Shown: positions 488 to 26,138 of the stretch, piece by piece
Layout of the letters: every line of letters starts with the position of its first letter
Position numbering within the stretch: the first letter of the stretch is position 1
IMG/VR virus record: IMGVR_UViG_3300032219_001109
Coordinates: 1 to 26,138 of that record
From: a virus
Lineage: Duplodnaviria > Caudoviricetes
Reading direction: 5' to 3' (one strand)
DNA length: 26,138 bases
Notes under the pieces: generated by a model
Seen by the model: only the letters and a program-made list of their open reading frames with translations
Databases searched by the model: none
Told to the model about the DNA's origin: nothing
Translations under genes and position numbers: made by a program

Positions 488-563
488 GGTGTCTATAGTG
501 TAGTGGTTCGCACACTAGTCTGTGGAACTGGAAGAATGAGTTCGATCCTCATTAGACACCCCA
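488..563 (+). tRNA. tRNA-His(GTG)
   Basis: Acceptor GTGTCTA/TAGACAC, encoded G-1 opposite C73, anticodon loop CT-GTG-GA, T-loop TTCGATC, encoded CCA. Confidence 0.95.
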
Positions 564-590
564 ATATTATTTTTTAAAAGGAGACCTGTC

Positions 591-629
591 ATGGATAGTG
601 ACAAGAGTGACAAGACTATGGGTGCGTAA
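591..629 (+). CDS. Possible 12-aa mini-ORF (MDSDKSDKTMGA) ending inside tRNA-Lys
   Basis: AAGGAG at 578-583, ATG at 591, TAA at 627-629 within the tRNA 5' end. Confidence 0.3.
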   Translation: MDSDKSDKTMGA

Positions 630-694
630 CTCAGAGGCAGAGTAACCGGCTTTTAACCGGTAAGTCGAGATTTCGAAATTCTCCGCACCTACCA
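620..694 (+). tRNA. tRNA-Lys(TTT)
   Basis: GGGTGCG/CGCACCT acceptor, ACCGG-CT-TTT-AA-CCGGT anticodon arm, TTCGAAA T-loop, ACCA end. Confidence 0.95.
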
Positions 695-804
695 TAGTAA
701 AGCATATTTCAGGTTGGACTATTTCTATAGGATAGTTATTTGGGTCGGTAGATAGGATTTGATGCCTAATCGAGACTAAGATACGGAGTATGCTTTACTA
801 TGGT
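691..804 (+). ncRNA. Unidentified structured RNA element closed by a 20-bp stem
   Basis: 691-710 ACCATAGTAAAGCATATTTC pairs with 785-804 GGAGTATGCTTTACTATGGT (18 Watson-Crick plus 2 G-U). Internal hairpins at 717-737 and about 743-776. Confidence 0.6.
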
Positions 805-809
805 TTTGA

Positions 810-885
810 TGGAGATTCGCCAAGTTGGTAAGGCATCGGATTTTGATTCCGACATTCACAGGTTCGAGTCCTGTATCTCCTACCA
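810..885 (+). tRNA. tRNA-Gln(TTG)
   Basis: TCGGA-TT-TTG-AT-TCCGA anticodon arm, TTCGAGT T-loop, GGAGAT/ATCTCC acceptor with an unpaired 1:72 position, ACCA end. Confidence 0.93.
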
Positions 886-892
886 AGAATAT

Positions 893-967
893 GGTCTCAA
901 AGTGTTCATGGACGCACATATGCCTGTCACGCATAAAGAAGGGGATCGTTACCCCTTGAGACCGCCA
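893..967 (+). tRNA. tRNA-Asp(GTC)
   Basis: GGTCTCA/TGAGACC acceptor, TATGC-CT-GTC-AC-GCATA anticodon arm, G73, CCA. Non-canonical T-loop ATCGTTA. Confidence 0.92.
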
Positions 968-1176
968 TGCCCCGTCGGAGTAACGTCTGGCTACTGTGAC
1001 CCGCAGGAAGTGAAATGAGTTCGTCACTCATGGGTGGTACTGTTCAAACCGAAACAGCGTTGGCAATACGAGAATCCTCTCTGGTTGGGGAGCGGGTGGA
1101 GGCTGTAGAAGTATTCCCCTTGAAAGAGGACATGTTTACTGATACGGTATAATTACCGCCGCAGAGAGGAAGCACC
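968..1176 (+). ncRNA. Unidentified multi-stem ncRNA (about 210 nt) between tRNA-Asp and tRNA-Asn
   Basis: GC-rich with no tRNA cloverleaf. Stems 1075-1083/1162-1170, 1092-1099/1153-1159, 1102-1107/1143-1148, 1015-1020/1026-1031, 999-1002/1032-1035, 1040-1044/1053-1057, and a GAAA-capped hairpin at 1118-1129. Confidence 0.7.
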
Positions 1177-1179
1177 TAT

Positions 1180-1258
1180 TCCGCAGAACCCGAGCAAGGT
1201 GCATGGGCGTGACTGTTAATCACTGGCTAGTAGAGTTCGATTCTCTAATGCGGAGCCA
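1180..1258 (+). tRNA. tRNA-Asn(GTT), atypical
   Basis: TCCGCA/TGCGGA acceptor, GTGA-CT-GTT-AA-TCAC anticodon arm, TTCGATT T-loop, GCCA end. Enlarged D-loop. Confidence 0.85.
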
Positions 1259-1265
1259 AGTTTTA

Positions 1266-1350
1266 GGGTGATATGGAACAATGGCGTTCTAGCGGGCTGT
1301 AACCCCGTGGTCTTTATGGCAGGTAGGTTCGATCCCTACATCACCCACCA
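1266..1350 (+). tRNA. tRNA-Tyr(GTA)
   Basis: GGGTGAT/ATCACCC acceptor, GCGGG-CT-GTA-AC-CCCGT anticodon arm, long variable arm, TTCGATC T-loop, ACCA end. Confidence 0.92.
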
Positions 1351-1352
1351 AT

Positions 1353-1427
1353 GGGCTGTTAGTGCTAATGGGAACACATCTGGTTTGCAACCAGAAATTG
1401 AGAGTTCGATTCTCTCACGGTCCACCA
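1353..1427 (+). tRNA. tRNA-Ala(TGC)
   Basis: Anticodon arm TCTGG-TT-TGC-AA-CCAGA. G3:U70 Ala identity pair in GGGCTGT/ACGGTCC, A73, CCA. Confidence 0.94.
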
Positions 1428-1445
1428 TAAATATTTAAATAGTAT

Positions 1446-1519
1446 GCTCTTTTAGTTAAATGGAATAACACTTGCCTTGTAAGCATGAATTGGTGGTTCG
1501 ATTCCATCAAGGAGCACCA
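1446..1519 (+). tRNA. tRNA-Thr(TGT)
   Basis: GCTCTTT/AAGGAGC acceptor, loop CT-TGT-AA, TTCGATT T-loop, ACCA end. Confidence 0.92.
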
Positions 1520-1528
1520 AAGTTTTTT

Positions 1529-1602
1529 GCGGGATTAGTTTAATGGTAAAACTAGAGATTTCCAATCTTTCGTTATCAGTTCGATTCTGATATCCCGCTC
1601 CA
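1529..1602 (+). tRNA. tRNA-Gly(TCC)
   Basis: GCGGGAT/ATCCCGC acceptor, loop TT-TCC-AA, U73, CCA. Confidence 0.95.
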
Positions 1603-1609
1603 GTTTTAT

Positions 1610-1685
1610 CTGAGTATAGTGTAGCCCGGCAACATACCTGCTTTGGGAGCAGGCGTCCAAGGTTCAAATCCTTGTACTCAGACCA
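1610..1685 (+). tRNA. tRNA-Pro(TGG)
   Basis: CTGAGTA/TACTCAG acceptor, CCTGC-TT-TGG-GA-GCAGG anticodon arm, TTCAAAT T-loop, ACCA end. Confidence 0.95.
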
Positions 1686-1688
1686 TAA

Positions 1689-1763
1689 GGTAATGTAGCA
1701 CAATGGTAGTGCAGCACCTTCATACGGTGTGTGTTGGGAGTTCAAGTCTCTCCATTACCACCA
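1689..1763 (+). tRNA. tRNA with CAT anticodon (elongator Met or lysidine-modified Ile2)
   Basis: GGTAATG/CATTACC acceptor, GCACC-TT-CAT-AC-GGTGT anticodon arm, ACCA end. Met versus Ile2 cannot be resolved by eye. Confidence 0.9.
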
Positions 1764-1765
1764 AG

Positions 1766-1801
1766 TTTAAGTTTACAGTAGTATGTTTTTAAGTTTACAG
1801 T
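1766..1801 (+). repeat. 14-bp direct repeat TTTAAGTTTACAGT x2 in a tRNA spacer
   Basis: Copies at 1766-1779 and 1788-1801. Confidence 0.8.
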
Positions 1802-1876
1802 CGGTCTTTAGTAAAATGGATATTACGGGTGGCTACGGACCATCAAGTGGGAGTTCGATTCTCTCAGGACCGGCCA
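1802..1876 (+). tRNA. tRNA-Arg(ACG)
   Basis: CGGTCTT/AGGACCG acceptor, GGTGG-CT-ACG-GA-CCATC anticodon arm, TTCGATT T-loop, GCCA end. Confidence 0.93.
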
Positions 1877-1883
1877 ATATTAT

Positions 1884-1957
1884 CCTCTCTTAGCTTAAAG
1901 GTAGAGCACCCGCTTGATAAGCGGTAGACGTTGGATCGTTACCATCAGAGAGGACCA
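1884..1957 (+). tRNA. tRNA-Ile(GAT)
   Basis: CCTCTCT/AGAGAGG acceptor, loop TT-GAT-AA, non-canonical T-loop ATCGTTA, ACCA end. Confidence 0.9.
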
Positions 1958-1974
1958 AATAAGGAGTTAAATAT

Positions 1975-2142
1975 TTGTCTGATGGTGGTAAAGGAAGTAA
2001 TCCTAGACCGTTTAGTGTCGATCAAAAGACATATCAAAACAACTGGGATAATATCTTCAAAAAGAAAGATTTGAAATGTAAATGTGAAAGTTGTAAATGT
2101 GATACAAAAAAAGATAAAAAAGACAATCTCGGTGTGATGTAA
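1975..2142 (+). CDS. 55-aa small protein (MSDGGKGSNPRPFSVDQKTYQNNWDNIFKKK...CKCESCKC...), not in the ORF track
   Basis: AAGGAG at 1961-1966, TTG start, open frame to TAA at 2140-2142. The GGKGS..RP.....W..IF pattern resembles small phage proteins I recall. Confidence 0.7.
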   Translation: MSDGGKGSNPRPFSVDQKTYQNNWDNIFKKKDLKCKCESCKCDTKKDKKDNLGVM

Positions 2143-2201
2143 TGGTAGCATCGCAGTCTCCAAAACTGTTCGTTGCGGTTCGAGTCCGTACACCGAGGCC
2201 A
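2128..2201 (+). tRNA. tRNA-Trp(CCA)
   Basis: CTCGGTG/CACCGAG acceptor, GCAGT-CT-CCA-AA-ACTGT anticodon arm, G73, CCA. Confidence 0.94.
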
Positions 2202-2214
2202 AATAAGAAAAATC

Positions 2215-2685
2215 ATGAAAAAATTAAATCTTCAAGAAGTCAAAGATTTTATTCAAGCACAATCACCTGAAACAAAAATTTATTTAGGTGCTGACTCTGA
2301 AAGATTTAATCAAGGTGATGCGTGGTACGCCGACTACACTCTTGCTGTAGTTGTACATATTGATGGTTGTCATGGTTGTAAAATATTTGGTGAAGTACAA
2401 AGAGAAAGAGATTATGATCAACGCAAGGATCGTCCATCTATGCGTTTAATGAATGAGGTTTACAAAGTATCAGAGTTGTTTCATAGTCTTGCTGATGTAT
2501 TAGAAGATAGACATGTTGAAGTGCATCTTGACATTAACCCAAATGAAATGTATGGTTCATCTTGTGTAATTCAACAAGCAGTAGGTTATATTCGTGGTAC
2601 ATGTAATGTGATACCTATGGTTAAACCAAAGGCGTTTGCAGCATCTTATGCCGCAGATAGATTGAAGTTCGTATTAGCAACATAA
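2215..2685 (+). CDS. RNase H-like YkuK/DUF458-family protein
   Basis: Motifs IYLGADS, R(L)MNEV, VEVHLDIN and KP.AFAASYAAD. The real start is probably ATG 2215, because the track start at 2173 lies inside tRNA-Trp. Confidence 0.8.
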   Translation: MKKLNLQEVKDFIQAQSPETKIYLGADSERFNQGDAWYADYTLAVVVHIDGCHGCKIFGEVQRERDYDQRKDRPSMRLMNEVYKVSELFHSLADVLEDRHVEVHLDINPNEMYGSSCVIQQAVGYIRGTCNVIPMVKPKAFAASYAADRLKFVLAT

Positions 2686-2700
2686 CTAAAAGGATTTATA

Positions 2701-2943
2701 ATGTATAAACCACTACGTGATAATATTATTGTAGAGAAACTAGAAAAAGATTTAACAACTGCTTCTGGAATTATTTTAAAGTCAAATGATGATGCAGATA
2801 AAGCAAAAGTAATTGCAATTGGTCCTGATGTAACTGACGTTGCATTAAATGAAGTTCTTTTAGTTAATTGGAACAAAGCAAAAAAAATAGAAAACGATAC
2901 ATATCAAATTAACATTCAAGATGTTATTGGTGTGTTTGACTAA
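2701..2943 (+). CDS. groES: Co-chaperonin GroES/Cpn10
   Basis: KPLRDNIIV, TASGIIL mobile loop, AKVIAIGP, C-terminal DVIGV. Confidence 0.9.
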   Translation: MYKPLRDNIIVEKLEKDLTTASGIILKSNDDADKAKVIAIGPDVTDVALNEVLLVNWNKAKKIENDTYQINIQDVIGVFD

Positions 2944-3019
2944 GCACCTTTAGCTGATGTGGTCATAGCAACGGTTTGAAGAACCGTGGAACTAGGTTCG
3001 ATCCCTAGAGGGTGCACCA
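2944..3019 (+). tRNA. tRNA-Phe(GAA)
   Basis: GCACCTT/AGGGTGC acceptor, ACGGT-TT-GAA-GA-ACCGT anticodon arm, TTCGATC T-loop, ACCA end. Confidence 0.94.
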
Positions 3020-3165
3020 TATAATTTATTCCAATCGATAGGAATAAAAGCTTTATTTTGATCTTGATTATAAATTGGTACAAACTTATTGGCTTTAGTA
3101 TTGCTTGTGCAATGAGCATGTACTCCAATAGTTCTTTCGTAGTAATCAAAATTTTCGTATGTCAT
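2992..3165 (-). CDS. Possible 57-aa minus-strand protein (MTYENFDYYERTIGVHAHC...IPIDWNKLYGAPSRDRT)
   Basis: ATG at 3165 and an open frame that fills the otherwise unexplained AT-rich spacer, ending antisense to tRNA-Phe. No clear Shine-Dalgarno site. Confidence 0.4.
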   Translation of the reverse strand: MTYENFDYYERTIGVHAHCTSNTKANKFVPIYNQDQNKAFIPIDWNKLYGAPSRDRT

Positions 3166-3202
3166 ATTAATATTTTAGAAGTCAGTCTTTAATAGTATAT
3201 AT

Positions 3203-3279
3203 GCCCTGGTGACGGAACTGGTATACGTGTTGGTCTTAGAAGCCAAATTTTAGGAGTTCGACTCTCCTCTAGGGCACCA
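3203..3279 (+). tRNA. tRNA-Leu(TAG) with a short variable loop
   Basis: GCCCTGG/CTAGGGC acceptor, TTGGT-CT-TAG-AA-GCCAA anticodon arm, 5-nt variable region, A73, CCA. Confidence 0.9.
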
Positions 3280-3283
3280 AATA

Positions 3284-3366
3284 GCGAGTATGATGAAATT
3301 GGTATACATAGGAGACTTAAAATCTCCCGCTTCGGCGTCCCGGTTCGAGTCCGGGTACTCGCACCA
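3284..3366 (+). tRNA. tRNA-Leu(TAA)
   Basis: GCGAGTA/TACTCGC acceptor, GGAGA-CT-TAA-AA-TCTCC anticodon arm, variable arm with a TTCG loop, ACCA end. Confidence 0.95.
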
Positions 3367-3378
3367 CTAAATACATAT

Positions 3379-3452
3379 TGCGGATTGGTGAAATGGTATC
3401 ACAGAGGACTCATAATCCTCAATTCCTTGTTCGAATCTTGGGTCCGCAACCA
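3379..3452 (+). tRNA. tRNA-Met(CAT), initiator-like
   Basis: TGCGGAT/GTCCGCA acceptor resembles fMet tRNAs. GAGGA-CT-CAT-AA-TCCTC anticodon arm, ACCA end, imperfect T-stem. Confidence 0.85.
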
Positions 3453-4733: not shown

Positions 4734-7270
4734 TGTCAAACTTTTATACGAACGTGCAATGTTTTGGTAACCACATCCTATATCGGGGTGTGGTTAATGG
4801 TAAACGAATAAAAGAACGTTTTGATTATCAACCAACTTTATATGAAGTAGTTCGTAAAGAAACTCCATTTAAAACACTAAGTGGAGAAAATCTTCATGAA
4901 TTTAAATTTGATTCTATTCGTGATGCAAAAGATTATCTAAAACAAAATCAAGATATTTCAAATAAGAAAGTTTATGGAAATACTCGATTTGAATATAATT
5001 TTATTGCAGATCAACATTCAAATGAAGTTGATTGGGATCAATCACAACTTTCAATTGTAATACTCGATATTGAAGTTGGTTCAGAGAATGGTTTTCCAGA
5101 TCCATATATAGCTTCAGAACCAATTACTGCTATCGCAGTTCGTCAATTAAATGGTGGTACAACAGTCTATGGTTGCGGTGATTTTGAAACCAAAGATGAT
5201 TCTGTTACCTATATTAAATGTAAAGATGAATGGACACTTTGCAAACAATTTCTCAGAGACTGGAAAGATAACTATCCAGATATTATTACTGGATGGAACA
5301 TTAAGTTCTTTGACTTTCCTTATTTGATTAATCGTTTTAAACGAGTTCTTTCTGAAGATGATGCAAAGGCACTTTCTCCTTGGAACTTTATTTCTGAGCG
5401 TAGTGCTGTACTAATGGCTAAATCCCATACCGTATATGACTTAGTTGGCGTACCAATGTTGGACTATATTGAATTGTATCGTAAATATGCTCCTGGTGGT
5501 GCTTCACAAGAATCGTATAAATTGGATCATATTGCACACGTAGAACTTGCAAAAAGAAAAATTGATTATTCTGAATATGAAAGCTTACATCAACTTTACA
5601 GATTAAACTTTCAAAAATTTATTGAGTATAATATTGTTGACGTTGCTCTTATCGAAGAACTTGAAGATAAGTTGAAGTTGATTGAGTTGGCATTAACTCT
5701 TGCATATGATAGTAAAACAAACTATGATGATGTGTTTACACAAGTTCGTATGTGGGATATCATCATATACAACTTCTTACGCAAAGACAATATAATTGTT
5801 CCACCTACAGAACGAAAAGATAAGTCTCAAGCATTTGAAGGTGCTTATGTAAAAGAACCACAAGTAGGCAAACATGATTGGGTAGCATCATTTGACTTGA
5901 ACAGTCTATACCCCCACCTTATCATGCAATACAATCTTTCTCCTGAAACATTGGTGAATTCAGATGACTACAATCAAGAAATGTTTGAAATCATTAATGA
6001 TGGTGTCAATGTAGATAAGTTACTAAACAGAGAAATCAATACATCAAACCTGAATGGAGTAACACTCACACCAAACGGACAATTCTTCTATACGAATAAA
6101 CAAGGTTTTCTTCCTAAACTTATGGCAGCAATGTATGAAGATCGTAAGATATACAAGAAGAAATCATTAGAATCTAAACACGAATTGGAAAAAGAATCAG
6201 ATTCAACTAAACGATTCATTATTGAAAAACGTATTGCACGATACAACAATCTACAATTAGCCAAAAAAGTATGTTTGAACTCTGCTTATGGTGCGATGGG
6301 TAATGAATATTTTCGTTTCTTTGATTTGCGTATTGCTTTGGCAGTTACGATGTCTGGTCAACTATCGATTCGTTGGATTGAAAATGCGTTAAATGATTAT
6401 TTAAACAAATTACTTAAAACAGAAAATGAAGATTACGTTATTGCATCAGATACAGATTCGATTTATCTTAAACTTGGTTCACTTGTCAACAAAGTGTTCC
6501 AAGAAGGAGAGCGAACTGATAAGGTTATTGCCTTCATGGACAAGGTCTGTGAAGATAAAATTCAACCGTATATTGATAAGAGTTATCAGGTACTTGCTGA
6601 TTATGTCCATGCACATGATCAAAAAATGCAAATGAAGCGTGAGGCTCTTGCAGACAAAGGTATTTGGACTGCAAAGAAACGTTACATTATGAATGTGTAT
6701 AATAATGAAGGTGTTCAATATGCAGAGCCTCATCTAAAAGTGATGGGTCTTGAAATGGTTAAATCTTCTACACCAGCACCAATTCGTGAGAAGATGGAAC
6801 AGATGATTAAACTTATGATGCATGGTACTGAAGAAGATATACAAGAATTTATTGGTAATTTTCGAATACAATTTAAAAATTTACCACCAGAAGATATATC
6901 ATTTCCTCGAGGAATTCGTGGCATCAAAAAGTATTCTGATGCGGTTACCTTATACTCCAAAGGAACACCCATTCATGTTAAAGGTGCAATCATATATAAT
7001 AATGCACTCAAACAAATGAATTTGGATAAAAAATATCCATTCATTAACGAAGGCGAAAAAATTAAGTTTTCATATCTCAAAACTCCAAATCCATTCAAAG
7101 AAACAGTCATATCTTTTCCGGTAAAACTCCCGAAAGAATTTGACTTAGAGAAGTATATCGATTATGATATGCAATTCGAAAAGGCTTTTATTGAGCCAAT
7201 TAAAGTAGTTTTGGATTGTATGAACTGGTCTGTAGAGAAACAAAGTACCTTGGAGGACTTCTTCGGATGA
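4733..7270 (+). CDS. gp43: Family B DNA polymerase (T4 gp43-like)
   Basis: Exonuclease motifs DIEV, GWN..FFD and YNIVD. Polymerase motifs SFDLNSLYPH, K..LNSAYG, DTDS and KKRY. C-terminal clamp-binding LEDFFG. Confidence 0.98.
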   Translation: MSNFYTNVQCFGNHILYRGVVNGKRIKERFDYQPTLYEVVRKETPFKTLSGENLHEFKFDSIRDAKDYLKQNQDISNKKVYGNTRFEYNFIADQHSNEVDWDQSQLSIVILDIEVGSENGFPDPYIASEPITAIAVRQLNGGTTVYGCGDFETKDDSVTYIKCKDEWTLCKQFLRDWKDNYPDIITGWNIKFFDFPYLINRFKRVLSEDDAKALSPWNFISERSAVLMAKSHTVYDLVGVPMLDYIELYRKYAPGGASQESYKLDHIAHVELAKRKIDYSEYESLHQLYRLNFQKFIEYNIVDVALIEELEDKLKLIELALTLAYDSKTNYDDVFTQVRMWDIIIYNFLRKDNIIVPPTERKDKSQAFEGAYVKEPQVGKHDWVASFDLNSLYPHLIMQYNLSPETLVNSDDYNQEMFEIINDGVNVDKLLNREINTSNLNGVTLTPNGQFFYTNKQGFLPKLMAAMYEDRKIYKKKSLESKHELEKESDSTKRFIIEKRIARYNNLQLAKKVCLNSAYGAMGNEYFRFFDLRIALAVTMSGQLSIRWIENALNDYLNKLLKTENEDYVIASDTDSIYLKLGSLVNKVFQEGERTDKVIAFMDKVCEDKIQPYIDKSYQVLADYVHAHDQKMQMKREALADKGIWTAKKRYIMNVYNNEGVQYAEPHLKVMGLEMVKSSTPAPIREKMEQMIKLMMHGTEEDIQEFIGNFRIQFKNLPPEDISFPRGIRGIKKYSDAVTLYSKGTPIHVKGAIIYNNALKQMNLDKKYPFINEGEKIKFSYLKTPNPFKETVISFPVKLPKEFDLEKYIDYDMQFEKAFIEPIKVVLDCMNWSVEKQSTLEDFFG

Positions 7271-8346
7271 CAATAGCAATATTTACATTTTTAAATGCCA
7301 TATTACTTTCTGGTGTGGCCGCATACTATTCCGTAATTGGATTAGCATCAATATTTCCAGGTTCATTTTGGCCTGTTGTTTTGATGGGTTCAGTATTAGA
7401 ATCTGCAAAATTAGTAACTACATCTTGGCTATTTCGTAATTGGAAAACAGCACCAAGAATACTGAAATATTATTTAACCTTTGCGGTTGCGATTTTAATG
7501 CTCATCACATCAATGGGCATTTTTGGTTATTTGTCTAAAGCACATTTAGAACATACGTCTGATATTGGTCCAGTTGCAGATAAAGTGTTAATGTATGATG
7601 AGAAGATCAAAACATTGAAGGAGAATGTAGATGCTAATAAGTTGGCACTCAAACAGCTTGATGCGGCTGTGGACCAAGTCATGGTACGAACAGAAGATGC
7701 GAGAGGAGCAGAACGGTCGGTTCAAATCCGTAAAGCCCAACAGAAAGAGCGCATACAACTTACTGAAGAAATTACGAAGCAACAAAAAGAAATCAATACG
7801 CTCACCGAAGAAAGATCGCCACTTGCGAATGACCTCCGCAAGGCTGAATCGGATTTCGGCCCGATTAAATATGTTGCCGAATTAATTTATGGTTCGGGAG
7901 ATAGAGATATTATTGACAGAGCAGTTCGTTTGGTAATTATGCTCATTATGATTGTATTTGATCCTCTAGCTGTGTTATTATTGATTGCAAGTAATATTTC
8001 TATGGCAGATACAGAAGAAAAAGAACCAAAAAAGAAACAAGATGAAAAAGATACAGATCCAGTCTATCAAAGAGTACAGGAAGCTAAAAAGAAGCTTGAG
8101 GAACGAGAGACTGAGACTAATGAAGAAGTTCCCCGGAAAGAAGAATCTAGACCTCAGGAAAGCTCTAGTGAAGTTCTACAGGTACCTAAAGAAAATGTCA
8201 TAATTATAGATGAAGCATCTGGTGAATCTATACCACCTATTTCAGATAATAAGGCAACCAAAAGAGGATTTCCTAAAAGAAAGACCAAATTAGAATCATA
8301 TGATTATGATGAACCATTAGCATTCAAAGAAAAGGACAATAAATGA
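7267..8346 (+). CDS. Multi-pass membrane protein with a central coiled coil and charged C-tail
   Basis: ATG 7267 overlaps the gp43 stop (ATGA). Three N-terminal hydrophobic segments, a heptad-rich middle, and a further TM segment IMLIMIVFDPLAVLLLIA. Confidence 0.85.
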   Translation: MTIAIFTFLNAILLSGVAAYYSVIGLASIFPGSFWPVVLMGSVLESAKLVTTSWLFRNWKTAPRILKYYLTFAVAILMLITSMGIFGYLSKAHLEHTSDIGPVADKVLMYDEKIKTLKENVDANKLALKQLDAAVDQVMVRTEDARGAERSVQIRKAQQKERIQLTEEITKQQKEINTLTEERSPLANDLRKAESDFGPIKYVAELIYGSGDRDIIDRAVRLVIMLIMIVFDPLAVLLLIASNISMADTEEKEPKKKQDEKDTDPVYQRVQEAKKKLEERETETNEEVPRKEESRPQESSSEVLQVPKENVIIIDEASGESIPPISDNKATKRGFPKRKTKLESYDYDEPLAFKEKDNK

Positions 8347-19613: not shown

Positions 19614-20416
19614 ATGTATTAGGTGCAGGATTTGTTGGTGGTAGATTTACTGAACTAACTCCTGATGTTATAGTAAACCATAGGAATGAATATACTGTAC
19701 ACTCAAATGAGGTTTTGTACTTTGTTTCTACTGTGGATAACTATAACGTCTGGACAAACCCATACATAGACATCGATACAAATCTAACTCATCTGATTAG
19801 AACTTTGGAGACTTGCAAAGGTAAAGATGTTACTTTTAACTTTGTAAGTTCTTGGTTTGTGTATGGTGATGTTGAATTGCCAGCTAAAGAGACGGCACAT
19901 TGTGACCCAAAAGGCTTCTACAGTATTACCAAAAGAACAGCAGAACAACTACTTATTTCATATTGTGAAACGTTTGGTATCAAATATAGAATCCTTCGTT
20001 TAGCAAATGTTTTGGGTGAATCTGATAAAAAAGTATCTAAAAAGAAGAATGCTTTACAATACATGATAGGCGAACTGAAATCAGGAAATCCGGTTTCTTT
20101 ATATGATGGTGGCGAAGCTTTTAGAGACTACATATATGTTGACGATGTAGTCTCTGCAATCAATCTTATTATGTCTAAAGGAAAGACGAATGAGATATAT
20201 AATATTGGAAATGGAGTACCTGTTCGTTTAGTTGATGCCATTAACTACGCTGCGGAAAAACTAAATTCAACGTCCGAGATAAAGAACATAGAAACCGCAG
20301 CATTTCATAAAGTTGTTCAGGCCACAAATATGGTCTTAGATATAACAAAACTTAAAGAATTAGGATATTTACCAAAATACGATATTTACGGCATAGTAGA
20401 TAAATTAATCGTATAA
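19607..20416 (+). CDS. NAD-dependent epimerase/dehydratase/reductase (extended SDR)
   Basis: LGAGFVG, SSWFVYG, YSITK (YxxxK), RDYIYVDDV, YNIGNG. Confidence 0.9.
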   Translation: MVNVLGAGFVGGRFTELTPDVIVNHRNEYTVHSNEVLYFVSTVDNYNVWTNPYIDIDTNLTHLIRTLETCKGKDVTFNFVSSWFVYGDVELPAKETAHCDPKGFYSITKRTAEQLLISYCETFGIKYRILRLANVLGESDKKVSKKKNALQYMIGELKSGNPVSLYDGGEAFRDYIYVDDVVSAINLIMSKGKTNEIYNIGNGVPVRLVDAINYAAEKLNSTSEIKNIETAAFHKVVQATNMVLDITKLKELGYLPKYDIYGIVDKLIV

Positions 20417-20419
20417 ATA
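20412..20419 (+). promoter_or_regulatory. T4-type late promoter TATAAATA
   Basis: Exact consensus about 50 bp upstream of ORF 20468. Confidence 0.72.
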
Positions 20420-20467: not shown

Positions 20468-21658
20468 ATGCTAAAATTCAAAACTTTTTTAAAAGAACAG
20501 ACCGAAGATCAGGAAGGCGAAAAGCTCAAACATATTGAGCATTTAGAGGACCATCCTATCAATCACGGCGCTAAAGGTTTTCATCATGCCTTGGGTGTTT
20601 TGAACCAAGTACACAATCATATTACTTCTGGTAATAAAGATGCTTCTTTAACTATGAAGCACGATGGTTCTCCGTCAATTGTTTATGGTCATCATCCAGA
20701 AACTGGAAAGTTCTTTGTTGCGTCTAAATCTGCATTCAACAAAAATCCAAAAGTTAATTATACAGAAAAAGATATTGTCAGAAATCATGGCCATGCGCCA
20801 GGGCTTGTAGAGAAGCTAAAACATGCCTTAGAACATTTACCAAAAGTAGCTCCAAAAAAAGGAGTATTCCAGGGAGATGTATTATTTTCTGGTAAAGACA
20901 AGAAAAAAGAAGGCGACAAACATACCTTTACTCCAAATACAATCAAGTATTCTGCTGACAAAAAATCAGAAGAAGGCAAGAAAATTGGAAAAGCTAAGTT
21001 TGGAATTTATAATCACACAGAATATGTTGGTTCTACAGCAAAATCTATGGCTGCAAATTATAATCCAGATTTGAGCAATTTTAAAGACCATCCTGATGTG
21101 TATCATAGACGTCCTGGCCATGATACCTCAAAAGTTAAAATGCAAGCAGCAGATCATGCAGATTTTGCTGGTCATGTAGCAGCAGCACAAAAAATACATG
21201 ATAAACATAAAGATACAATATATCATGCTGTTGAGCCTCTTAAGGATCACGTTAAAACATATATTAACCATGCGGTTCGTACAAATGAAACACCTTCAAG
21301 TGAAGGATTGCAGAAACATATTGAAGGTAAATATCAGAAAGAAATCGACAAAGTAAAGACAGAAAAATCTAAATCTGCTAAGAAATCAGAAGCAGATGCA
21401 CTTACTAAACATATTACCATGCACAAAACACATATTAATAATTTTTTGAAAATGCATCATCATCTTGCTCAAGCAAAAAATGTATTAGTCCGTGTATTGT
21501 CACAGCATACTGGTGGATTAGAACACGAAGTTGGTGGTCAAAAAGTTAAACCAGAAGGTTTTGTAGCTACCCATAAAGGTCAAGTGACCAAATTAAATGA
21601 CCGAAACGAATTCAATAGATTGAACTTTTTAAAATCTCAAAATAATAAGAAGGATTAA
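20468..21658 (+). CDS. His-rich protein with ligase/nucleotidyltransferase-like motifs (DUF6267-like), probable head protein
   Basis: KHDGSP (KxDG), FQGD, PEGFV and KLNDR. N-terminus MLKFKTFLKE resembles a capsid-targeting sequence. Confidence 0.75.
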   Translation: MLKFKTFLKEQTEDQEGEKLKHIEHLEDHPINHGAKGFHHALGVLNQVHNHITSGNKDASLTMKHDGSPSIVYGHHPETGKFFVASKSAFNKNPKVNYTEKDIVRNHGHAPGLVEKLKHALEHLPKVAPKKGVFQGDVLFSGKDKKKEGDKHTFTPNTIKYSADKKSEEGKKIGKAKFGIYNHTEYVGSTAKSMAANYNPDLSNFKDHPDVYHRRPGHDTSKVKMQAADHADFAGHVAAAQKIHDKHKDTIYHAVEPLKDHVKTYINHAVRTNETPSSEGLQKHIEGKYQKEIDKVKTEKSKSAKKSEADALTKHITMHKTHINNFLKMHHHLAQAKNVLVRVLSQHTGGLEHEVGGQKVKPEGFVATHKGQVTKLNDRNEFNRLNFLKSQNNKKD

Positions 21659-21662
21659 AAAA

Positions 21663-22835
21663 ATGGCTTCACTACAATTACAACTTTGGTTGCAACAAGC
21701 TGGAATATTAAAAGAATCCAAAGAAAAAATTACCCGTGCAGAAATAAAAAAAATTTTGCAAGATTTAGAAAAAGAAAAAGGTTGGCATGAAGGCGATAAA
21801 GATGATGAAGAAGAAAATGAAAAAAAACATTTAAATGAAGCAAAAACAGCAAAACCTACAGAAGGTCCTGAAAAAGGTAAAGTGTCTTCCGATACAAAAG
21901 GAAAGTTACATGAACTTCTTGTTGGGTATCATCTAAATGGTGGATCACACATGTCGCAGCATCCAGACAGGGAAGGTGACACACCAAAACAAGCTCATGA
22001 TAAATTAAAAAAGTCTATTCATCCAGATGACTACAAAAAAATAAATGCAAGAGCAAAATCGGCAGCAGAAGATGTTAGAAAAAAAGTTGAAGTTGGTGGC
22101 CATATAGTTCATTCTGTTCATTGGACATCAAAGCCTGGCGATATTCAAAGAAGTACAGGAATAAAATCTTCTCAAAAAGAAGATTCTTCGGATGTTGTTG
22201 TTACTACAAAAAATAAAAAAAAGCAACAAGTACATCATGGCGTAAGTTTAAAAGTAACAGATAGTTCGAATAAACACGTACCAGTATCTAATCCTGGAGA
22301 AAAAACATTTCATGGTGCAGATAAACACTTAGAAGCACATCGAACTGACATTCTGCAACAGCATCCAGAATTAAAACATGCTGGAAACAGAGAAGCAAGA
22401 AAAGCAATGATGAAGGCTAATCCTAAAATGAAGGATTACGTTAAAAAGAAAAATGCTGAAACTTTGCATAATGTTGCAAAAACATACCATGAACATTTAT
22501 CAAATCTTCCAAAACATGAACTTGCGGATCATATAAGACATCTAATGCACTCGCATCAGACACCTATGCAACAACAAGGTCACAATCATATTAGACATAC
22601 GACATATTCACAATCCGCAAGAGCAGGTGGTGGATATGGTCATCACTCTATTGTTCCAAGTGCCCATCATGAACATATATACAATGATCCACACAATATA
22701 GAAATTCATCACAGCGGAAGCAGCATTCATTTTAAACATAAAGGAAAAACCTTTGGTAGAGTTGGATTAAAGTTTAGTTCACAAAGCGATCCTCTAAGTT
22801 CAATTAAAGGTTCAGGGCAAACTGCCGGAGATTAA
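21663..22835 (+). CDS. His-rich protein with a possible PD-(D/E)xK nuclease fold
   Basis: GKLHELLV helix, then SSDVVV...GVSLK. Charged N-terminal leader ending HLNE. Confidence 0.6.
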   Translation: MASLQLQLWLQQAGILKESKEKITRAEIKKILQDLEKEKGWHEGDKDDEEENEKKHLNEAKTAKPTEGPEKGKVSSDTKGKLHELLVGYHLNGGSHMSQHPDREGDTPKQAHDKLKKSIHPDDYKKINARAKSAAEDVRKKVEVGGHIVHSVHWTSKPGDIQRSTGIKSSQKEDSSDVVVTTKNKKKQQVHHGVSLKVTDSSNKHVPVSNPGEKTFHGADKHLEAHRTDILQQHPELKHAGNREARKAMMKANPKMKDYVKKKNAETLHNVAKTYHEHLSNLPKHELADHIRHLMHSHQTPMQQQGHNHIRHTTYSQSARAGGGYGHHSIVPSAHHEHIYNDPHNIEIHHSGSSIHFKHKGKTFGRVGLKFSSQSDPLSSIKGSGQTAGD

Positions 22836-22842
22836 AGAAATA

Positions 22843-24708
22843 ATGAAATCGTTTTCTCAATTAACAGAAGAAAAACAAAAAAAACTCACGATGTTGTTTG
22901 GTCGTATGAATCCTCCTACCAAAGGGCATGAGGAGAATATCGAGAGCCTAAAGAAAACAGCAGATAAAGAAAATTCTGACCACTTAGTAATTGCATCTCA
23001 TTCACAAGATGCAAAGAAGAATCCTTTATCTCCAGAAACTAAGCTAAAGCATTTAAAACGATCTTTTCCAAATACCAATATTATAACATCAAGCAAAGAG
23101 AAACCTACCATCATGCATCATGCAGCAGATGCTCATGCGAAAGGATATACTCATCTTCATGTTATTGCGGGTGCAGATAGAGTAGATGAGTATAAGAGAT
23201 TATTAAATCACTACAATGGAAAATCTCACGATGAATCTGGTAAACCATTCAAGCATGGTTCATATAATTTTAAGAAAATAACTGTATCTTCATCTGGTGA
23301 GAGAAAGAAAGGTATCTCCGGTACCGATATGCGTAATCATGCACAGAATAATGATTACAAATCGTTCAAGAGCAATCTTTCTTCACATATGCAAAACAAT
23401 GATAAACATGCAAAAGAACTTTTTCATGATGTCCGTAAAGGAATGGGGTTACATGAAAATGTGAATCGTGGCATGTTCAAAGCTATCTTTATTACTGGTG
23501 GACCTGGTTCAGGTAAAGATATTATCATTCGTGAAGGTATCGCAGAACAAAAAGCAGTTGAACTAAGTGCAATTCAAGCATTTGAATATTTGATGGACAA
23601 AAAGAAGTTATCTGAAAGCAGTAAAGACTTCCGTAGAGAAGCTATTCGTAGTCGTGGACCATTAGTGATTAATGGTACAGCAGATAGTATCGATATAATA
23701 TTTACCGTCAAAGAAGAATTAGAAGATATTGGTTATAATACTATGATGGTCTATGTTAATACTTCAAACGAAGTAAGTCGTGAAAGAAACATGGGATTGA
23801 AACGAATGATATCAGAATCTATACGTGAAGATAAATGGAACAAAGCTCAGACAAATAAAATAAAGTTTTACGAGATGTTTCACGATTTCAATCTATTCGA
23901 AAATAATGATAATCTACAAATAGTTGAAGAATCTATGAGTGATGTTTACGAGCATGTAAATGACTTTTTAGATAGAAATACATTAAACGAAACATCAATC
24001 GATTGGTTGATGAGAAATAAGAAATTAAACATCAACGAAAAGGTTTCATTACTATTTAAGGAGCAAGAAAATGCTGAAAATGATTCTAAGTCTATTCAAA
24101 GGTCCAACTTCAGAAGCAAAGGTATCAGAGGACAATACATTGCAGACAACAACGCCCCAGCCATGCAAATTGCCAGAAAAGCAGGAAAAATTGATGACGT
24201 CCGTGACGGAGACGTTGCCAGCAACTCCAGCTACATCTTTAGAGCCTACGAAGGACAAAAGCCCACCCTCAAAATCAACCCGCCCCCAAAAGAAAGCAAC
24301 TTCAGCAAAGACAAAGAAAAAGTAAAGAAAAAAGGTTTGGTTGATTCACCAACTCAAAGTCAACGACTGAGAAATGTGGCAGGATTAGGACCAGAATATG
24401 ATACAAGACAACAAGGTACTGTATATCCTATGTCTGGTTTGGGCGATGTAACATACCGTGAAAATACAGAACTTCCTAAACATAAATATATGAAGGAAGA
24501 CACCGCAGCAGGGCTTCGCATAAGTTTCAATCAATTCAGAGGTCAAAAGACGAATGAAGCAATAGACGATCCCGGTGCTGTAGATATGGGTGTCGGTGGA
24601 GTATTAAACGGTGCTACAAATAAAGAACCCATCCAAACCTACAAAGATGAAGATAAAACAACAGGTTTGTTAATCAAAAAGAATAAGAAACAAAAACAGG
24701 AGAAATAA
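22843..24708 (+). CDS. Cytidylyltransferase-like (HxGH) nucleotidyltransferase fused to a P-loop kinase and a disordered tail
   Basis: FGRMNPPTKGH, KNPLS, AGADR and ISGTDMR, followed by ITGGPGSGKD, INGT and YV.TS.EVSRERN. Confidence 0.85.
   Translation: MKSFSQLTEEKQKKLTMLFGRMNPPTKGHEENIESLKKTADKENSDHLVIASHSQDAKKNPLSPETKLKHLKRSFPNTNIITSSKEKPTIMHHAADAHAKGYTHLHVIAGADRVDEYKRLLNHYNGKSHDESGKPFKHGSYNFKKITVSSSGERKKGISGTDMRNHAQNNDYKSFKSNLSSHMQNNDKHAKELFHDVRKGMGLHENVNRGMFKAIFITGGPGSGKDIIIREGIAEQKAVELSAIQAFEYLMDKKKLSESSKDFRREAIRSRGPLVINGTADSIDIIFTVKEELEDIGYNTMMVYVNTSNEVSRERNMGLKRMISESIREDKWNKAQTNKIKFYEMFHDFNLFENNDNLQIVEESMSDVYEHVNDFLDRNTLNETSIDWLMRNKKLNINEKVSLLFKEQENAENDSKSIQRSNFRSKGIRGQYIADNNAPAMQIARKAGKIDDVRDGDVASNSSYIFRAYEGQKPTLKINPPPKESNFSKDKEKVKKKGLVDSPTQSQRLRNVAGLGPEYDTRQQGTVYPMSGLGDVTYRENTELPKHKYMKEDTAAGLRISFNQFRGQKTNEAIDDPGAVDMGVGGVLNGATNKEPIQTYKDEDKTTGLLIKKNKKQKQEK
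24071..24325 (+). CDS. Probable overprinted 84-aa protein in the +1 frame
   Basis: AAGGAG at 24058-24063, ATG 7 nt later, local switch to C-ending codons in the host frame, and an amphipathic N-terminus with a T/P/S/K-rich tail. Confidence 0.6.
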   Translation: MLKMILSLFKGPTSEAKVSEDNTLQTTTPQPCKLPEKQEKLMTSVTETLPATPATSLEPTKDKSPPSKSTRPQKKATSAKTKKK

Positions 24709-24709
24709 C

Positions 24710-26138
24710 ATGTTTGCTAAAGATAAAGTGTCTCAATCAATGATTGATGCAGTTAATAAAGTTCTTACTACAGAATCAAATATTAAAAAAGAACCAGAAA
24801 AGCTTGATGAAGCTTTCCCTACTGTAGCAGATGCTAAAAAAAGAGCAAGTGAACCAAAACCAAGAGGCGATTCTGGTATTAAGTTAGGAACACGTTATGG
24901 TGGTGGTCGTCAAGCGGATGCTCCTGAAGAAGATGATGATGATGAGCCAAAGAAGAAAGGTCTAACTGGTGCCCATCAAAAACGTAGAACAAACACTAAG
25001 CTTTATAAAGAAGAAGGTTTAGAAGGCAGTAAAAAAGATAAAGAAGAAGATAAAAAACTAGCCAAAAAACATGGCATGACCCTTACGCAATGGGAAAAAT
25101 CTTCTGCTGATAAAAAGCACGACATGGAAGAAGAACTAGTAGGAAAACAGCGTAATATCGATGCGAATAAAAATGGAAAAATTGATGCTCAAGATTTTGA
25201 AATTCTTCGTTCAAAGAAAAAGAAAATGAATGAAGAATCATTCGCTGCTCGTCTAGTAGAGTCGATGTATGGTAAAAAGTCTGCTCTTCCTATGGACGAA
25301 AGAGAAATGACTGATACTGAAACAAAGAAAAAAGAAGAAATTGCCAAAGCAATGAAACGTACACCTGCTGATGTTGAAGATATGAAAAAACGTTATGGTT
25401 CACGTTGGAAAGAAGTTCTATATGCTACTGCTACTAAGAAAGCAATGAAAGAAGCAGAAGAACACAAAGATGAAGATGAAGAAGGTCAACTAGACGAATC
25501 TGTAAATCGTCCTCAACCCAATTTACCATCAATGTCATCTGATGACGCAGTTGCCAATGCACAAAATAGGGTTCAAAGACAAAAAAAATATTTGGAACTT
25601 TTAAAAGCACAAGATAAAACTACAGATTACGAAACACAACGACGTAAAAAAGAAAATCCAATCCCAAAAGAAGATGGTTTTCTACGTAGTCTAAGTATGA
25701 AGAATGAAGCTGCATTTGGTAAAGATAAAGCTTTACTGAAGAAGATGGTAAAAAAATCTGCATTGAAAGAAGAAGAACAGCTAGATGAACGTGCAAAATG
25801 GAGAACATCTAGCATTGCTCATGACACAGGTTATCGTAAAGATGGCGCACATGGTGGCATTGAAAACACAGCCGATACTGGTAAAGAAGATATGTTGAAA
25901 AATAGAGGTCGTGGAATAAGAAGCGGCACTCCACTAACAAAATATGACACAAAAAGTTTGAAAAAAAGCATTACCAAAAATATTGCACAAATGAGAAAAG
26001 AAGAAGCAGAACAGATTGAGGAAGGCGATACACCATACAATGACCAATTATCTTTGCGTGGTGTTACTGCGCCTGGAGCACCAATGGACAATCGTCATGG
26101 ACACAAAAAATCTGGCACAGGTGCATACTTTGGTGGTA
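24710..26138 (+). CDS. Long charged low-complexity probable internal head protein, 3'-truncated and absent from the ORF track
   Basis: AGGAG Shine-Dalgarno, ATG 24710 (MFAKDKVSQSMIDAV...), frame open to the window end. EF-hand-like DANKNGKIDAQD and repeated (Q/K)LDE and MxE motifs. Confidence 0.88.
   Translation, partial: MFAKDKVSQSMIDAVNKVLTTESNIKKEPEKLDEAFPTVADAKKRASEPKPRGDSGIKLGTRYGGGRQADAPEEDDDDEPKKKGLTGAHQKRRTNTKLYKEEGLEGSKKDKEEDKKLAKKHGMTLTQWEKSSADKKHDMEEELVGKQRNIDANKNGKIDAQDFEILRSKKKKMNEESFAARLVESMYGKKSALPMDEREMTDTETKKKEEIAKAMKRTPADVEDMKKRYGSRWKEVLYATATKKAMKEAEEHKDEDEEGQLDESVNRPQPNLPSMSSDDAVANAQNRVQRQKKYLELLKAQDKTTDYETQRRKKENPIPKEDGFLRSLSMKNEAAFGKDKALLKKMVKKSALKEEEQLDERAKWRTSSIAHDTGYRKDGAHGGIENTADTGKEDMLKNRGRGIRSGTPLTKYDTKSLKKSITKNIAQMRKEEAEQIEEGDTPYNDQLSLRGVTAPGAPMDNRHGHKKSGTGAYFGG

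What the first reader, a model, noticed from the sequence alone, without database searches (positions are those of the whole stretch)
24058..24325. Overprinted gene hidden in the +1 frame of the nucleotidyltransferase-kinase tail
Seen: a perfect AAGGAG-N7-ATG. Across this ORF the host frame abruptly favours C-ending codons (TCC AAC TTC ... GCC AGC AAC TCC AGC TAC ATC ... CCC ACC CTC) in an otherwise A/T-ending genome, and it reverts after the TAA at 24325. Host third positions are second positions of the +1 frame, giving its Thr/Pro/Ser/Ala richness. The product MLKMILSLFK...KKATSAKTKKK has an amphipathic N-helix, a disordered linker and a basic tail. Inference: a genuine dual-coding region encoding a membrane- or DNA-associating microprotein.
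Basis: partly seen in the sequence, partly recalled or inferred. Interest (0 to 1): 0.7.

Follow-up and report, generated by a model that had tools for sequence, protein, structure and literature searches.

The report
Hidden overprinted gene inside phage enzyme
A freshwater T4-like phage and over a hundred relatives keep a second, usually unannotated reading frame of about 85 codons, with its own conserved start signal, inside the tail of an enzyme gene; it likely makes a small protein predicted to grip the membrane with a short helix and nucleic acid with a positively charged tail, though its translation has not been observed.

Summary
Confirmed. An AAGGAG-N7-ATG at 24071 opens an 84-codon +1 frame inside a T4-like phage cytidyltransferase-kinase gene. 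There 42% of host codons end in C, against 12-13% outside. Of 147 distinct homologous loci, 114 keep the +1 ORF (all ATG, nearly all with a clear Shine-Dalgarno) and show the bias. The other 33 lack the ORF and, with one relic excepted, the bias. In carriers, Asn/Asp/Tyr/His/Phe/Cys codons end in C 90% of the time inside the overlap and 31% upstream. That choice cannot create +1 stops, so selection acts on the +1 product's amino acids. Over the N-terminal helix, host silent changes fall five-fold and the +1 frame shows purifying selection. Antisense, +2, RNA-structure, frameshift and spanin readings fail. No stand-alone homologue, family or paper was found. The tree suggests an early origin and repeated losses. 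Odds: real gene about 0.93; membrane-helix plus basic-tail tether about 0.45. Translation and function are untested. The scan earlier noted a similar hidden helix-plus-basic-tail gene in a different gene of another phage (unchecked). A second probable overprint lies at 7631-7885.

The parts
24058..24063 (+). Shine-Dalgarno AAGGAG of the nested gene, written in host codons F-K-E
   Evidence: in 80 of 88 carriers AGGA lies exactly 8 nt before the ATG
24071..24325 (+). Overprinted +1-frame ORF, 84 aa plus TAA
   Evidence: kept in 67 of 80 loci, 88 of 110 distinct CDS, 114 of 147 distinct loci
24071..24103 (+). Residues 1-11: cationic amphipathic helix; here the +1 frame carries the constraint
   Evidence: AlphaFold2 helix 2-9; mean hydrophobic moment 0.67, net charge +2.1; +1 pS 0.090 > pN 0.041, host pS 0.043
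24104..24247 (+). Residues 12-59: Thr/Ser/Pro/Gln/Glu-rich unstructured linker, lying over the host's conserved DDVRDGD...YIFR block
   Evidence: composition; C at 90% of host NNY codons; no secondary structure predicted
24248..24322 (+). Residues 60-84: lysine-rich tail ending T-S-x-K-T-K-K-K
   Evidence: median 9 K/R per 25 codons in 70 carriers against 4 in the same frame of 21 non-carriers; alignment
22843..24708 (+). Host gene, 621 aa: capsid-targeting-like leader, cytidyltransferase-like domain (18-164), P-loop kinase-like domain (about 213-380), low-complexity tail holding the overlap (codons 410-495)
   Evidence: Pfam PF01467, weak Zeta_toxin/AAA_19; phrog_3041/395/12810; leader F4 100% (required by my extraction pattern), E10 97% in 92 distinct leaders
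20412..20419 (+). T4-type late-promoter consensus (motif recalled) ahead of the DUF6267 - unknown ORF - host-gene cluster; likely source of the mRNA
   Evidence: 3 matches in the window against 3.6 expected, so only its position (49 nt before 20468) is suggestive

Best explanation
The region is a selected dual-coding stretch: a nested +1-frame gene with its own conserved ribosome-binding site, likely translated from the phage's late mRNA into an 84-aa protein whose N-terminal amphipathic helix is predicted to sit on the host inner membrane and whose lysine-rich tail would bind nucleic acid through a flexible linker. SHOWN (comparative): the start, frame and stop are conserved; the two frames share the constraint, with +1 ruling the first 12 codons and the host ruling the rest; the host's silent positions are used to keep the +1 product polar; several lineages lack the gene. 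INFERRED: translation; late timing; origin by overprinting of the host tail near the base of the clade; repeated loss, hence an accessory role; membrane binding; nucleic-acid binding. The tether would hold phage DNA or assembling heads near the membrane. Odds: translated functional gene about 0.93; this tether mechanism, given that, about 0.5.
For: (1) Co-occurrence: 67 of 80 loci carry the ORF and 13 do not; the +1 frame is open in 67 of 67 carriers and 1 of 13 others. C3 is 0.30-0.60 in 88 carriers and 0.02-0.23 in 22 non-carriers, classed without using C3. With metagenome loci, 114 of 147 carry it, all with ATG. (2) Selection on +1 amino acids: host NNY codons end in C at 0.90 in the carrier core against 0.31 upstream; non-carriers show 0.22 and 0.24. 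G at NNR codons is unchanged (0.20 vs 0.21), so this is not a GC island. Ile ATA, which makes a +1 stop before A or G, is at frequency 0.00 of 155 against 0.17 upstream. (3) Close pairs: host pS is 0.233 upstream, 0.116 in the core and 0.043 over the helix; non-carriers show 0.181 and 0.207. Over the helix +1 pS is 35/387 and pN 68/1646, P 0.0002. (4) The host segment under the SD and helix is deleted or eroded in non-carriers; L270 retains an ATG-Leu-Lys without SD and with a premature stop. (5) The helix has hydrophobicity 0.70, moment 0.67 and net charge +2.1. The MreB1-9 membrane helix peptide (with an added Trp) has H 0.700 and charge +4 (PMC7766051 Table 1), and that helix is necessary and sufficient for membrane binding (PMC3163269 passages). 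Noc joins an N-terminal helix to DNA binding (PMC4331003 abstract). (6) The tail is more basic and far less hydrophobic than the same frame in non-carriers: 9 vs 4 K/R and 1 vs 9 hydrophobic residues per 25. (7) Method control: the same scan recovers a lipobox o-spanin-like gene nested in an i-spanin-like gene.
Against: No expression or protein data. Outside the helix the +1 frame shows pN above pS (core 0.058 vs 0.029; linker 0.101 vs 0.050), so its selection there is on composition only. Host pS in the core is only slightly below the downstream tail (0.116 vs 0.141, P 0.01). Pair counts on a spanning tree are not fully independent. The pattern used to class carriers itself demanded M-[LFI]-[KRNQS] plus two hydrophobics, so that part of the logo is circular; searches did not demand it and gave the same helix. 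An 11-residue helix binds membranes weakly on its own (PMC3163269, PMC4331003). The same i, i+1, i+3, i+4 pattern fits a protein-binding or capsid-targeting helix. Lysine richness partly follows from the A-rich host codons. Codon adaptation does not say which frame is older (0.46 vs 0.48), and the tree's base is unresolved.
Confidence: 0.45

Rival explanations
1. The product is a capsid-packaged basic internal protein. Its helix acts as an uncleaved capsid-targeting sequence, and its lysines help neutralise packaged DNA.
For: It is nested in a gene with a capsid-targeting-like leader, among neighbours with similar leaders. Its hydrophobic spacing (5, 6, 8, 9) equals the host leader's (4, 5, 7, 8) shifted by one. 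T4-like internal proteins are basic, only their lysines contact packaged DNA (PMC3012670), and loss of processing at residue 10 still allows targeting (PMC9026906).
Against: The equivalent of targeting residue 4 is aromatic in 2% of 83 distinct N-termini. The equivalent of Glu10 is acidic in 1%, against 98% in host leaders. Net charge is +2.1 against -1.0 and hydrophobicity 0.70 against 0.35. Only 9 of 107 have a [LIF]xE site in the first 25 residues.
Confidence: 0.22
2. The helix docks into a protein groove (its own host enzyme, a neighbour such as DUF6267, or a bacterial target), making the product a small inhibitor or adaptor with a solubilising tail.
For: Sequence-level constraint is confined to about 12 residues, as for a short binding motif. 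The kinase-only lineage without the transferase domain lacks the gene (L034, L082, L083, L183).
Against: Most non-carriers keep the transferase domain. The helix tolerates free exchange among L/I/V/F/W, which suits lipid better than a shaped pocket.
Confidence: 0.17
3. It is a lysis accessory, like an embedded o-spanin or a cationic outer-membrane disruptor.
For: Embedding in +1 is the lambda Rz/Rz1 architecture (PMC6139136); the product is cationic, Pro-rich and probably late.
Against: A lipobox is present in 0 of 107 products and no transmembrane segment is seen (best 19-residue hydropathy at most 0.94). The host tail is not a membrane protein. Two near-complete carrier genomes have their own spanin-like pair.
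Confidence: 0.05
4. No +1 protein is made; the signal comes from an antisense or +2 gene, an RNA structure, foreign DNA or a frameshift extension.
For: The same-register antisense frame is open in 57 of 67 carriers; 36 of 88 carriers have a slippery-type heptamer near the ATG.
Against: The antisense ORFs have no ATG start in 26 of 28 carriers and scattered ends. The +2 frame is open in only 12 of 67. The overlap folds no better than shuffles (z +0.83). G3 is unchanged. The invariant Met and fixed SD spacing fit initiation, and the window itself has no slippery run.
Confidence: 0.05
5. The ORF is translated only to tune ribosome traffic on the late mRNA; the product is merely kept harmless and soluble.
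For: The linker is selected mainly against hydrophobic residues; the gene is dispensable in several lineages.
Against: A purely regulatory ORF needs no conserved amphipathic helix under purifying selection and no extra lysines.
Confidence: 0.06

Closest known systems
Overprinted (de novo) viral genes, segregated/asymmetric model (PMC8227390, PMC6195259)
   Same: Same-strand nested frame; enrichment in C, Ser and Pro and in disorder-promoting residues; constraint divided between the frames; orphan product.
   Different: Those data sets excluded phages and genomes over 30 kb. This case lies in 160-170-kb T4-like genomes, is Lys/Thr- rather than Arg-rich, and comes with many natural loss lineages.
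Embedded o-spanin (lambda Rz1 in Rz; PMC6139136)
   Same: Small Pro-rich gene in the +1 frame of a phage gene, with its own start, missed by gene callers.
   Different: No lipobox, no signal or transmembrane segment; the host is an enzyme fusion, not an i-spanin; carriers have separate spanin-like genes.
N-terminal membrane-targeting helices of E. coli MreB and B. subtilis Noc (PMC3163269, PMC4331003)
   Same: Short cationic amphipathic helix starting at Met1 with similar hydrophobicity; in Noc it is coupled to DNA binding.
   Different: No homology and no folded domain; any nucleic-acid binding would come from a disordered lysine tail; binding untested.
T4 internal proteins with capsid-targeting sequence (PMC9026906, PMC3012670)
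   Same: Small, basic, encoded among putative head cargo; helix periodicity alike.
   Different: Lacks the aromatic targeting residue and the Glu processing site that its own host gene shows.
Phage T4 gene 30.3' nested in 30.3 (recalled; two searches found no paper on it)
   Same: As recalled, a small basic gene embedded one base out of frame in a T4 gene.
   Different: Different host gene; no PHROGs match links the two; not otherwise tested.

Membership tests
Overprinted nested gene | Conserved independent start and open alternative frame | tested here: met
Overprinted nested gene | Selection acting on the alternative frame | tested here: met
   host pS reduced, +1 pN < pS over the helix, NNY C 0.90 vs 0.31
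Overprinted nested gene | Host frame independently conserved | tested here: met
   core block kept in non-carriers, host pN 0.015 vs pS 0.207
Overprinted nested gene | New frame younger than the host frame (de novo) | tested here: inconclusive
   no stand-alone homologue found, but non-carriers are nested in the tree, the base is unresolved and codon use is equal
Overprinted nested gene | Translation demonstrated | not testable with these tools
   needs ribosome profiling or proteomics
Embedded o-spanin | Lipobox with Cys after a signal peptide | tested here: not met
   0 of 107
Embedded o-spanin | Host gene is a membrane-anchored i-spanin | tested here: not met
   host is a cytidyltransferase-kinase fusion; spanin-like pair lies elsewhere
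T4-type internal protein | Aromatic targeting residue at leader position 4 with a hydrophobic residue at 7 | tested here: not met
   aromatic in 2% at the equivalent position; the second hydrophobic position is met
T4-type internal protein | Glu processing site at about residue 10 | tested here: not met
   acidic in 0-1% at positions 10-11
T4-type internal protein | Present in the virion | not testable with these tools
   no cultured phage carries the tail
Membrane-targeting amphipathic helix | Short cationic helix with a strong hydrophobic moment at a terminus | tested here: met
   moment 0.67, H 0.70, charge +2.1 over 78 distinct 11-mers; helix 2-9
Membrane-targeting amphipathic helix | Directs a reporter to the membrane | not testable with these tools
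   bench test needed

The most novel reading that the evidence does not exclude
Large freshwater T4-like phages repeatedly create small basic proteins by overprinting. This family is a de novo membrane-to-DNA tether, born inside head-cargo genes, kept almost entirely by composition-level selection through the host's silent sites, and lost many times. Standard annotation misses a whole layer of such nested genes: two probable cases lie in this 26-kb window alone.
Probability: 0.3. Interest if true: 0.75.

Novelty: new member of a known kind. Interest (0 to 1): 0.56.

Why it matters
It adds a protein family with no match in Pfam, PHROGs, NCBIfam or PDB sequences, hidden in a common group of freshwater phages. 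It gives an unusually clean natural experiment on gene overlap. The same host block occurs with and without the second frame in several lineages, so one can measure what an overprinted gene costs its host (host pN/pS rises from about 0.07 to 0.31) and see selection working on the composition of a disordered protein rather than on its sequence. It also suggests that nested non-lysis genes in large phage genomes are under-annotated, and offers a simple way to find them.

Tried and rejected
Antisense gene, +2 gene, RNA structure, GC island and frameshift: rejected. Family searches: no match for the 84-aa product in Pfam or PHROGs at E 0.1. For the 29 aligned members, NCBIfam gave 0 families and PHROGs one marginal hit in 1 of 29 (E 0.029). 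PDB sequences gave 0 hits at E 1. Protein collections gave 13 and 12 hits, 16 different proteins, all resembling this same family; the 7 looked up are singleton clusters. Their genomic context could not be read, so 'no stand-alone homologue' is by likeness only. The 'longer' and 'shorter' length searches were not run, though one search has no length limit. ESM Atlas: three unnamed viral clusters of 83-97 aa at score 0.88, a lead only; no named hit. No second copy was found in three carrier genomes and none in two partial non-carrier genomes (51% and 42% complete). No cultured phage has the host tail. Expression: no RNA holder listed; four DNA contig runs confirmed the assembly without gaps, but the full-length one may be the source. 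Complex prediction of residues 1-40 with the host enzyme part: no answer, score 0.00; this is evidence neither way. Start-region folding was weaker than shuffles in 4 of 4 carriers (z 0.65-1.61); weak. I looked for a compensating nested helix-plus-basic gene in neighbouring genes, including the DUF6267 part held, and found none. The sigma-70 scan was at chance level. Literature: ten searches listed no paper on this gene; the library lacks most subscription journals and no supplements were read.

Full report
SETTING. The window is a whole 26,138-base virus record. Its genes read as those of a T4-like phage: DNA polymerase, recombinase and helicase genes (by inspection), 17 tRNA genes and a DUF6267 gene. 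ORF 22843-24708 (621 aa) matches the cytidyltransferase PHROGs and PF01467, has a P-loop kinase-like middle and ends in a low-complexity tail. Cultured T4-like phages share the enzyme domains at under 60% identity, but none has the tail. Of the eight runs listed as holding related DNA, four are labelled freshwater metagenome and none is RNA.

THE OBSERVATION. AAGGAG (24058-24063), seven bases, ATG (24071) and TAA (24323-24325) are as described, in frame +1. Host codons end in C in 36 of 86 cases in the overlap (9.5 expected, z 9.5), against 0.12 before and 0.13 after. The best window in 22 other genes is z 3.4. In two near-complete relatives the overlap is the top C3 window among 118 and 128 long ORFs (z 9.3 and 7.8). 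Other genes there reach 7.3, 7.2 and 6.7 with closed +1 frames, so the bias alone is not proof. The open frame alone has P about 0.02 in this window.

CONSERVATION AND NATURAL CONTROLS. One search kept the best 80 of 250 confirmed loci. Of these, 67 have an SD-ATG +1 ORF and 13 do not. Adding loci (103 of 105 parsed) gives 110 distinct coding sequences including the window. The 88 carriers have ORFs of 78-115 aa, the stop at one host position in 74, and C3 of 0.30-0.60. The 22 non-carriers have C3 of 0.02-0.23; C3 was not used to class them. With 74 metagenome loci, 260 entries reduce to 147 distinct kinase-plus-tail loci (17 skipped as truncated or lacking the motif, the rest duplicates). Of these 114 are carriers, all starting with ATG: 96 with AAGGA(G), 14 with GAGGA, 4 weaker. 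The other 33 are non-carriers with maximum C3 at or below 0.26, except L270 at 0.37. AGGA lies 8 nt before the ATG in 80 of 88. The sampling was seeded by four queries, three of them non-carriers, and is not a census.

WHAT IS SELECTED. The host's third position is the +1 frame's second position. Across 28 carriers it is T in 59% of the first ten codons (hydrophobic residues), C in 34-56% thereafter (Thr, Pro, Ser, Ala), and background just past the stop. Seven non-carriers show no such change. For host NNY codons the C/T choice cannot create a +1 stop, yet C stands at 0.90 in the carrier core against 0.31 upstream, and at 0.22 against 0.24 in non-carriers. G at NNR codons is unchanged. In 57 close carrier pairs host pS is 0.233 upstream, 0.043 over the helix, 0.116 in the core and 0.141 downstream. 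In 10 non-carrier pairs it is 0.181 upstream and 0.207 in the core. Over the helix the +1 frame has pS 0.090 and pN 0.041 (P 0.0002) while the host frame has pS about equal to pN. In the core the host frame dominates and the +1 frame has pN above pS. This is the segregated or asymmetric pattern named in PMC8227390 (passages). The C, Ser and Pro enrichment matches PMC6195259, whose data set excluded phages (passages).

RIVAL SIGNALS. The same-register antisense frame is often open (57 of 67), a side effect of avoiding TTA, CTA and TCA. It has no ATG start in 26 of 28 carriers and its ends scatter. The +2 frame is open in 12 of 67. The overlap has no unusual fold. A frameshift would need neither the invariant Met nor the fixed SD spacing.

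HISTORY. A 35-row tree of the enzyme domains needs three changes and puts the window's clade next to a non-carrier clade (100/99). An 82-row kinase tree rooted on four cultured-phage kinases needs nine changes, at least five forced by well-supported branches, with non-carriers mostly nested among carriers. It is a quick tree with an unresolved base and a long-branch warning. Relics fit loss: L270 keeps ATG-Leu-Lys without SD and with a premature stop, and L092, close to carrier L087, has lost the start. An early origin with repeated losses is the simplest reading; recombination is not excluded. That the +1 frame is the younger one is inferred from its orphan, low-complexity product and from the host block's independent conservation; it is not shown.

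THE PRODUCT. Consensus M-L-K-x-(L/I)-(L/I)-(D/N)-(F/L/W)-(L/F)-K, then a T/K/S/P/Q/E-rich stretch almost free of aromatics, then a tail with a median of 9 K/R in 25. AlphaFold2 gives one helix (2-9) and no other structure, pTM 0.15. There is no lipobox in 107 products and no transmembrane segment. No family or solved relative was found. The 16 database hits look like the same ORF called by chance, and the seven checked are singletons.

HOW IT MOST LIKELY WORKS. A T4-type late-promoter motif (recalled consensus) at 20412 precedes the cluster, although the motif occurs at chance frequency in the window. The host and its neighbours begin with leaders like T4's capsid-targeting sequence, whose key positions are 4, 7, 8 and 10 (PMC9026906 passages). 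Cytidyltransferases have been detected in cyanophage virion proteomes, with the authors' caveat about contamination (PMC10665884 passage). I infer late internal initiation at 24071. The helix resembles the MreB and Noc membrane-targeting helices in length, charge and hydrophobicity (PMC3163269 passages; PMC7766051 passages and Table 1; PMC4331003 abstract). It differs from the host's own leader in lacking the aromatic residue and the Glu site. I therefore commit to a membrane-anchored, flexible, basic tether for phage nucleic acid or assembling heads (0.45). Behind it come an uncleaved capsid-cargo protein (0.22), a protein-binding helix (0.17), regulatory translation (0.06), lysis (0.05) and no protein (0.05). 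Lysis is weak because carriers G001 and G003 have their own spanin-like pair (definitions from PMC6139136 passages).

NOVELTY. Nested +1 genes in phages are a known kind (Rz1; T4 30.3', recalled only). This family was not found in the ten literature searches listed under Tried and rejected. The scan's earlier notes described the host as capsid-targeted in other genomes, an idea I had noted beforehand. They also described a similar hidden helix-plus-basic-tail gene in a ligase-like gene of another phage, which I could not find in my loci. Verdict: a new member of a known kind, with strong comparative proof of coding and an untested function. Interest 0.56.

Noticed in passing
window 7618-7885 (+), inside ORF 7267-8346: A second AAGGAG-N7-ATG opens an 84-aa K/R-rich +1 ORF. 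It was the strongest C3 window among the other window genes (z 3.4). In 68 distinct homologues the +1 frame is open over 65 codons in 60 (26 with SD and ATG at the same place), and +2 in none; GC3 is 0.43 in open against 0.18 in closed loci. Probably another overprinted gene; half of the open loci lack an ATG at that position.
   Followed up: partly
L294 (G004; L209 minus strand), metallophosphoesterase-like gene: Nested +1 ORF of 77 aa with a TTAGGAG SD, a hydrophobic N-terminus and a basic tail, C3 z 7.4. In 35 distinct homologues with the anchor (40 of 80 loci lacked it), 32 have the ATG, giving ORFs of 32-36 aa (21) or 57-77 aa (11). The SD lies in conserved host codons, so it may be incidental.
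   Followed up: partly
L207 and L212 (minus strand); L195 13587-14281; L201 16461-16968: Spanin-like pairs: a lipobox gene embedded in +1 of an i-spanin-like gene in G004 and G005, a similar match in G003, and an adjacent pair in G001.
   Followed up: partly
L270, L092, L245: Non-carriers with remnants of the lost nested gene: start without SD, premature stops, residual C bias in L270.
   Followed up: partly
L034, L082, L083, L183, L221: A lineage in which the host gene lacks the cytidyltransferase domain (373-404 aa) and follows a roughly 605-aa gene; all lack the nested ORF.
   Followed up: no
window 20468-26138: Run of genes with capsid-targeting-like leaders and E/K-rich low-complexity bodies (DUF6267, a 390-aa ORF, the host, a 476+-aa ORF) behind a late-promoter-like motif.
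   Followed up: partly
window 489-3452: Cluster of 17 tRNA genes.
   Followed up: no
L278: A carrier-like open +1 frame that appears to start at GTG behind a GGAG (read; not counted among the 147).
   Followed up: no
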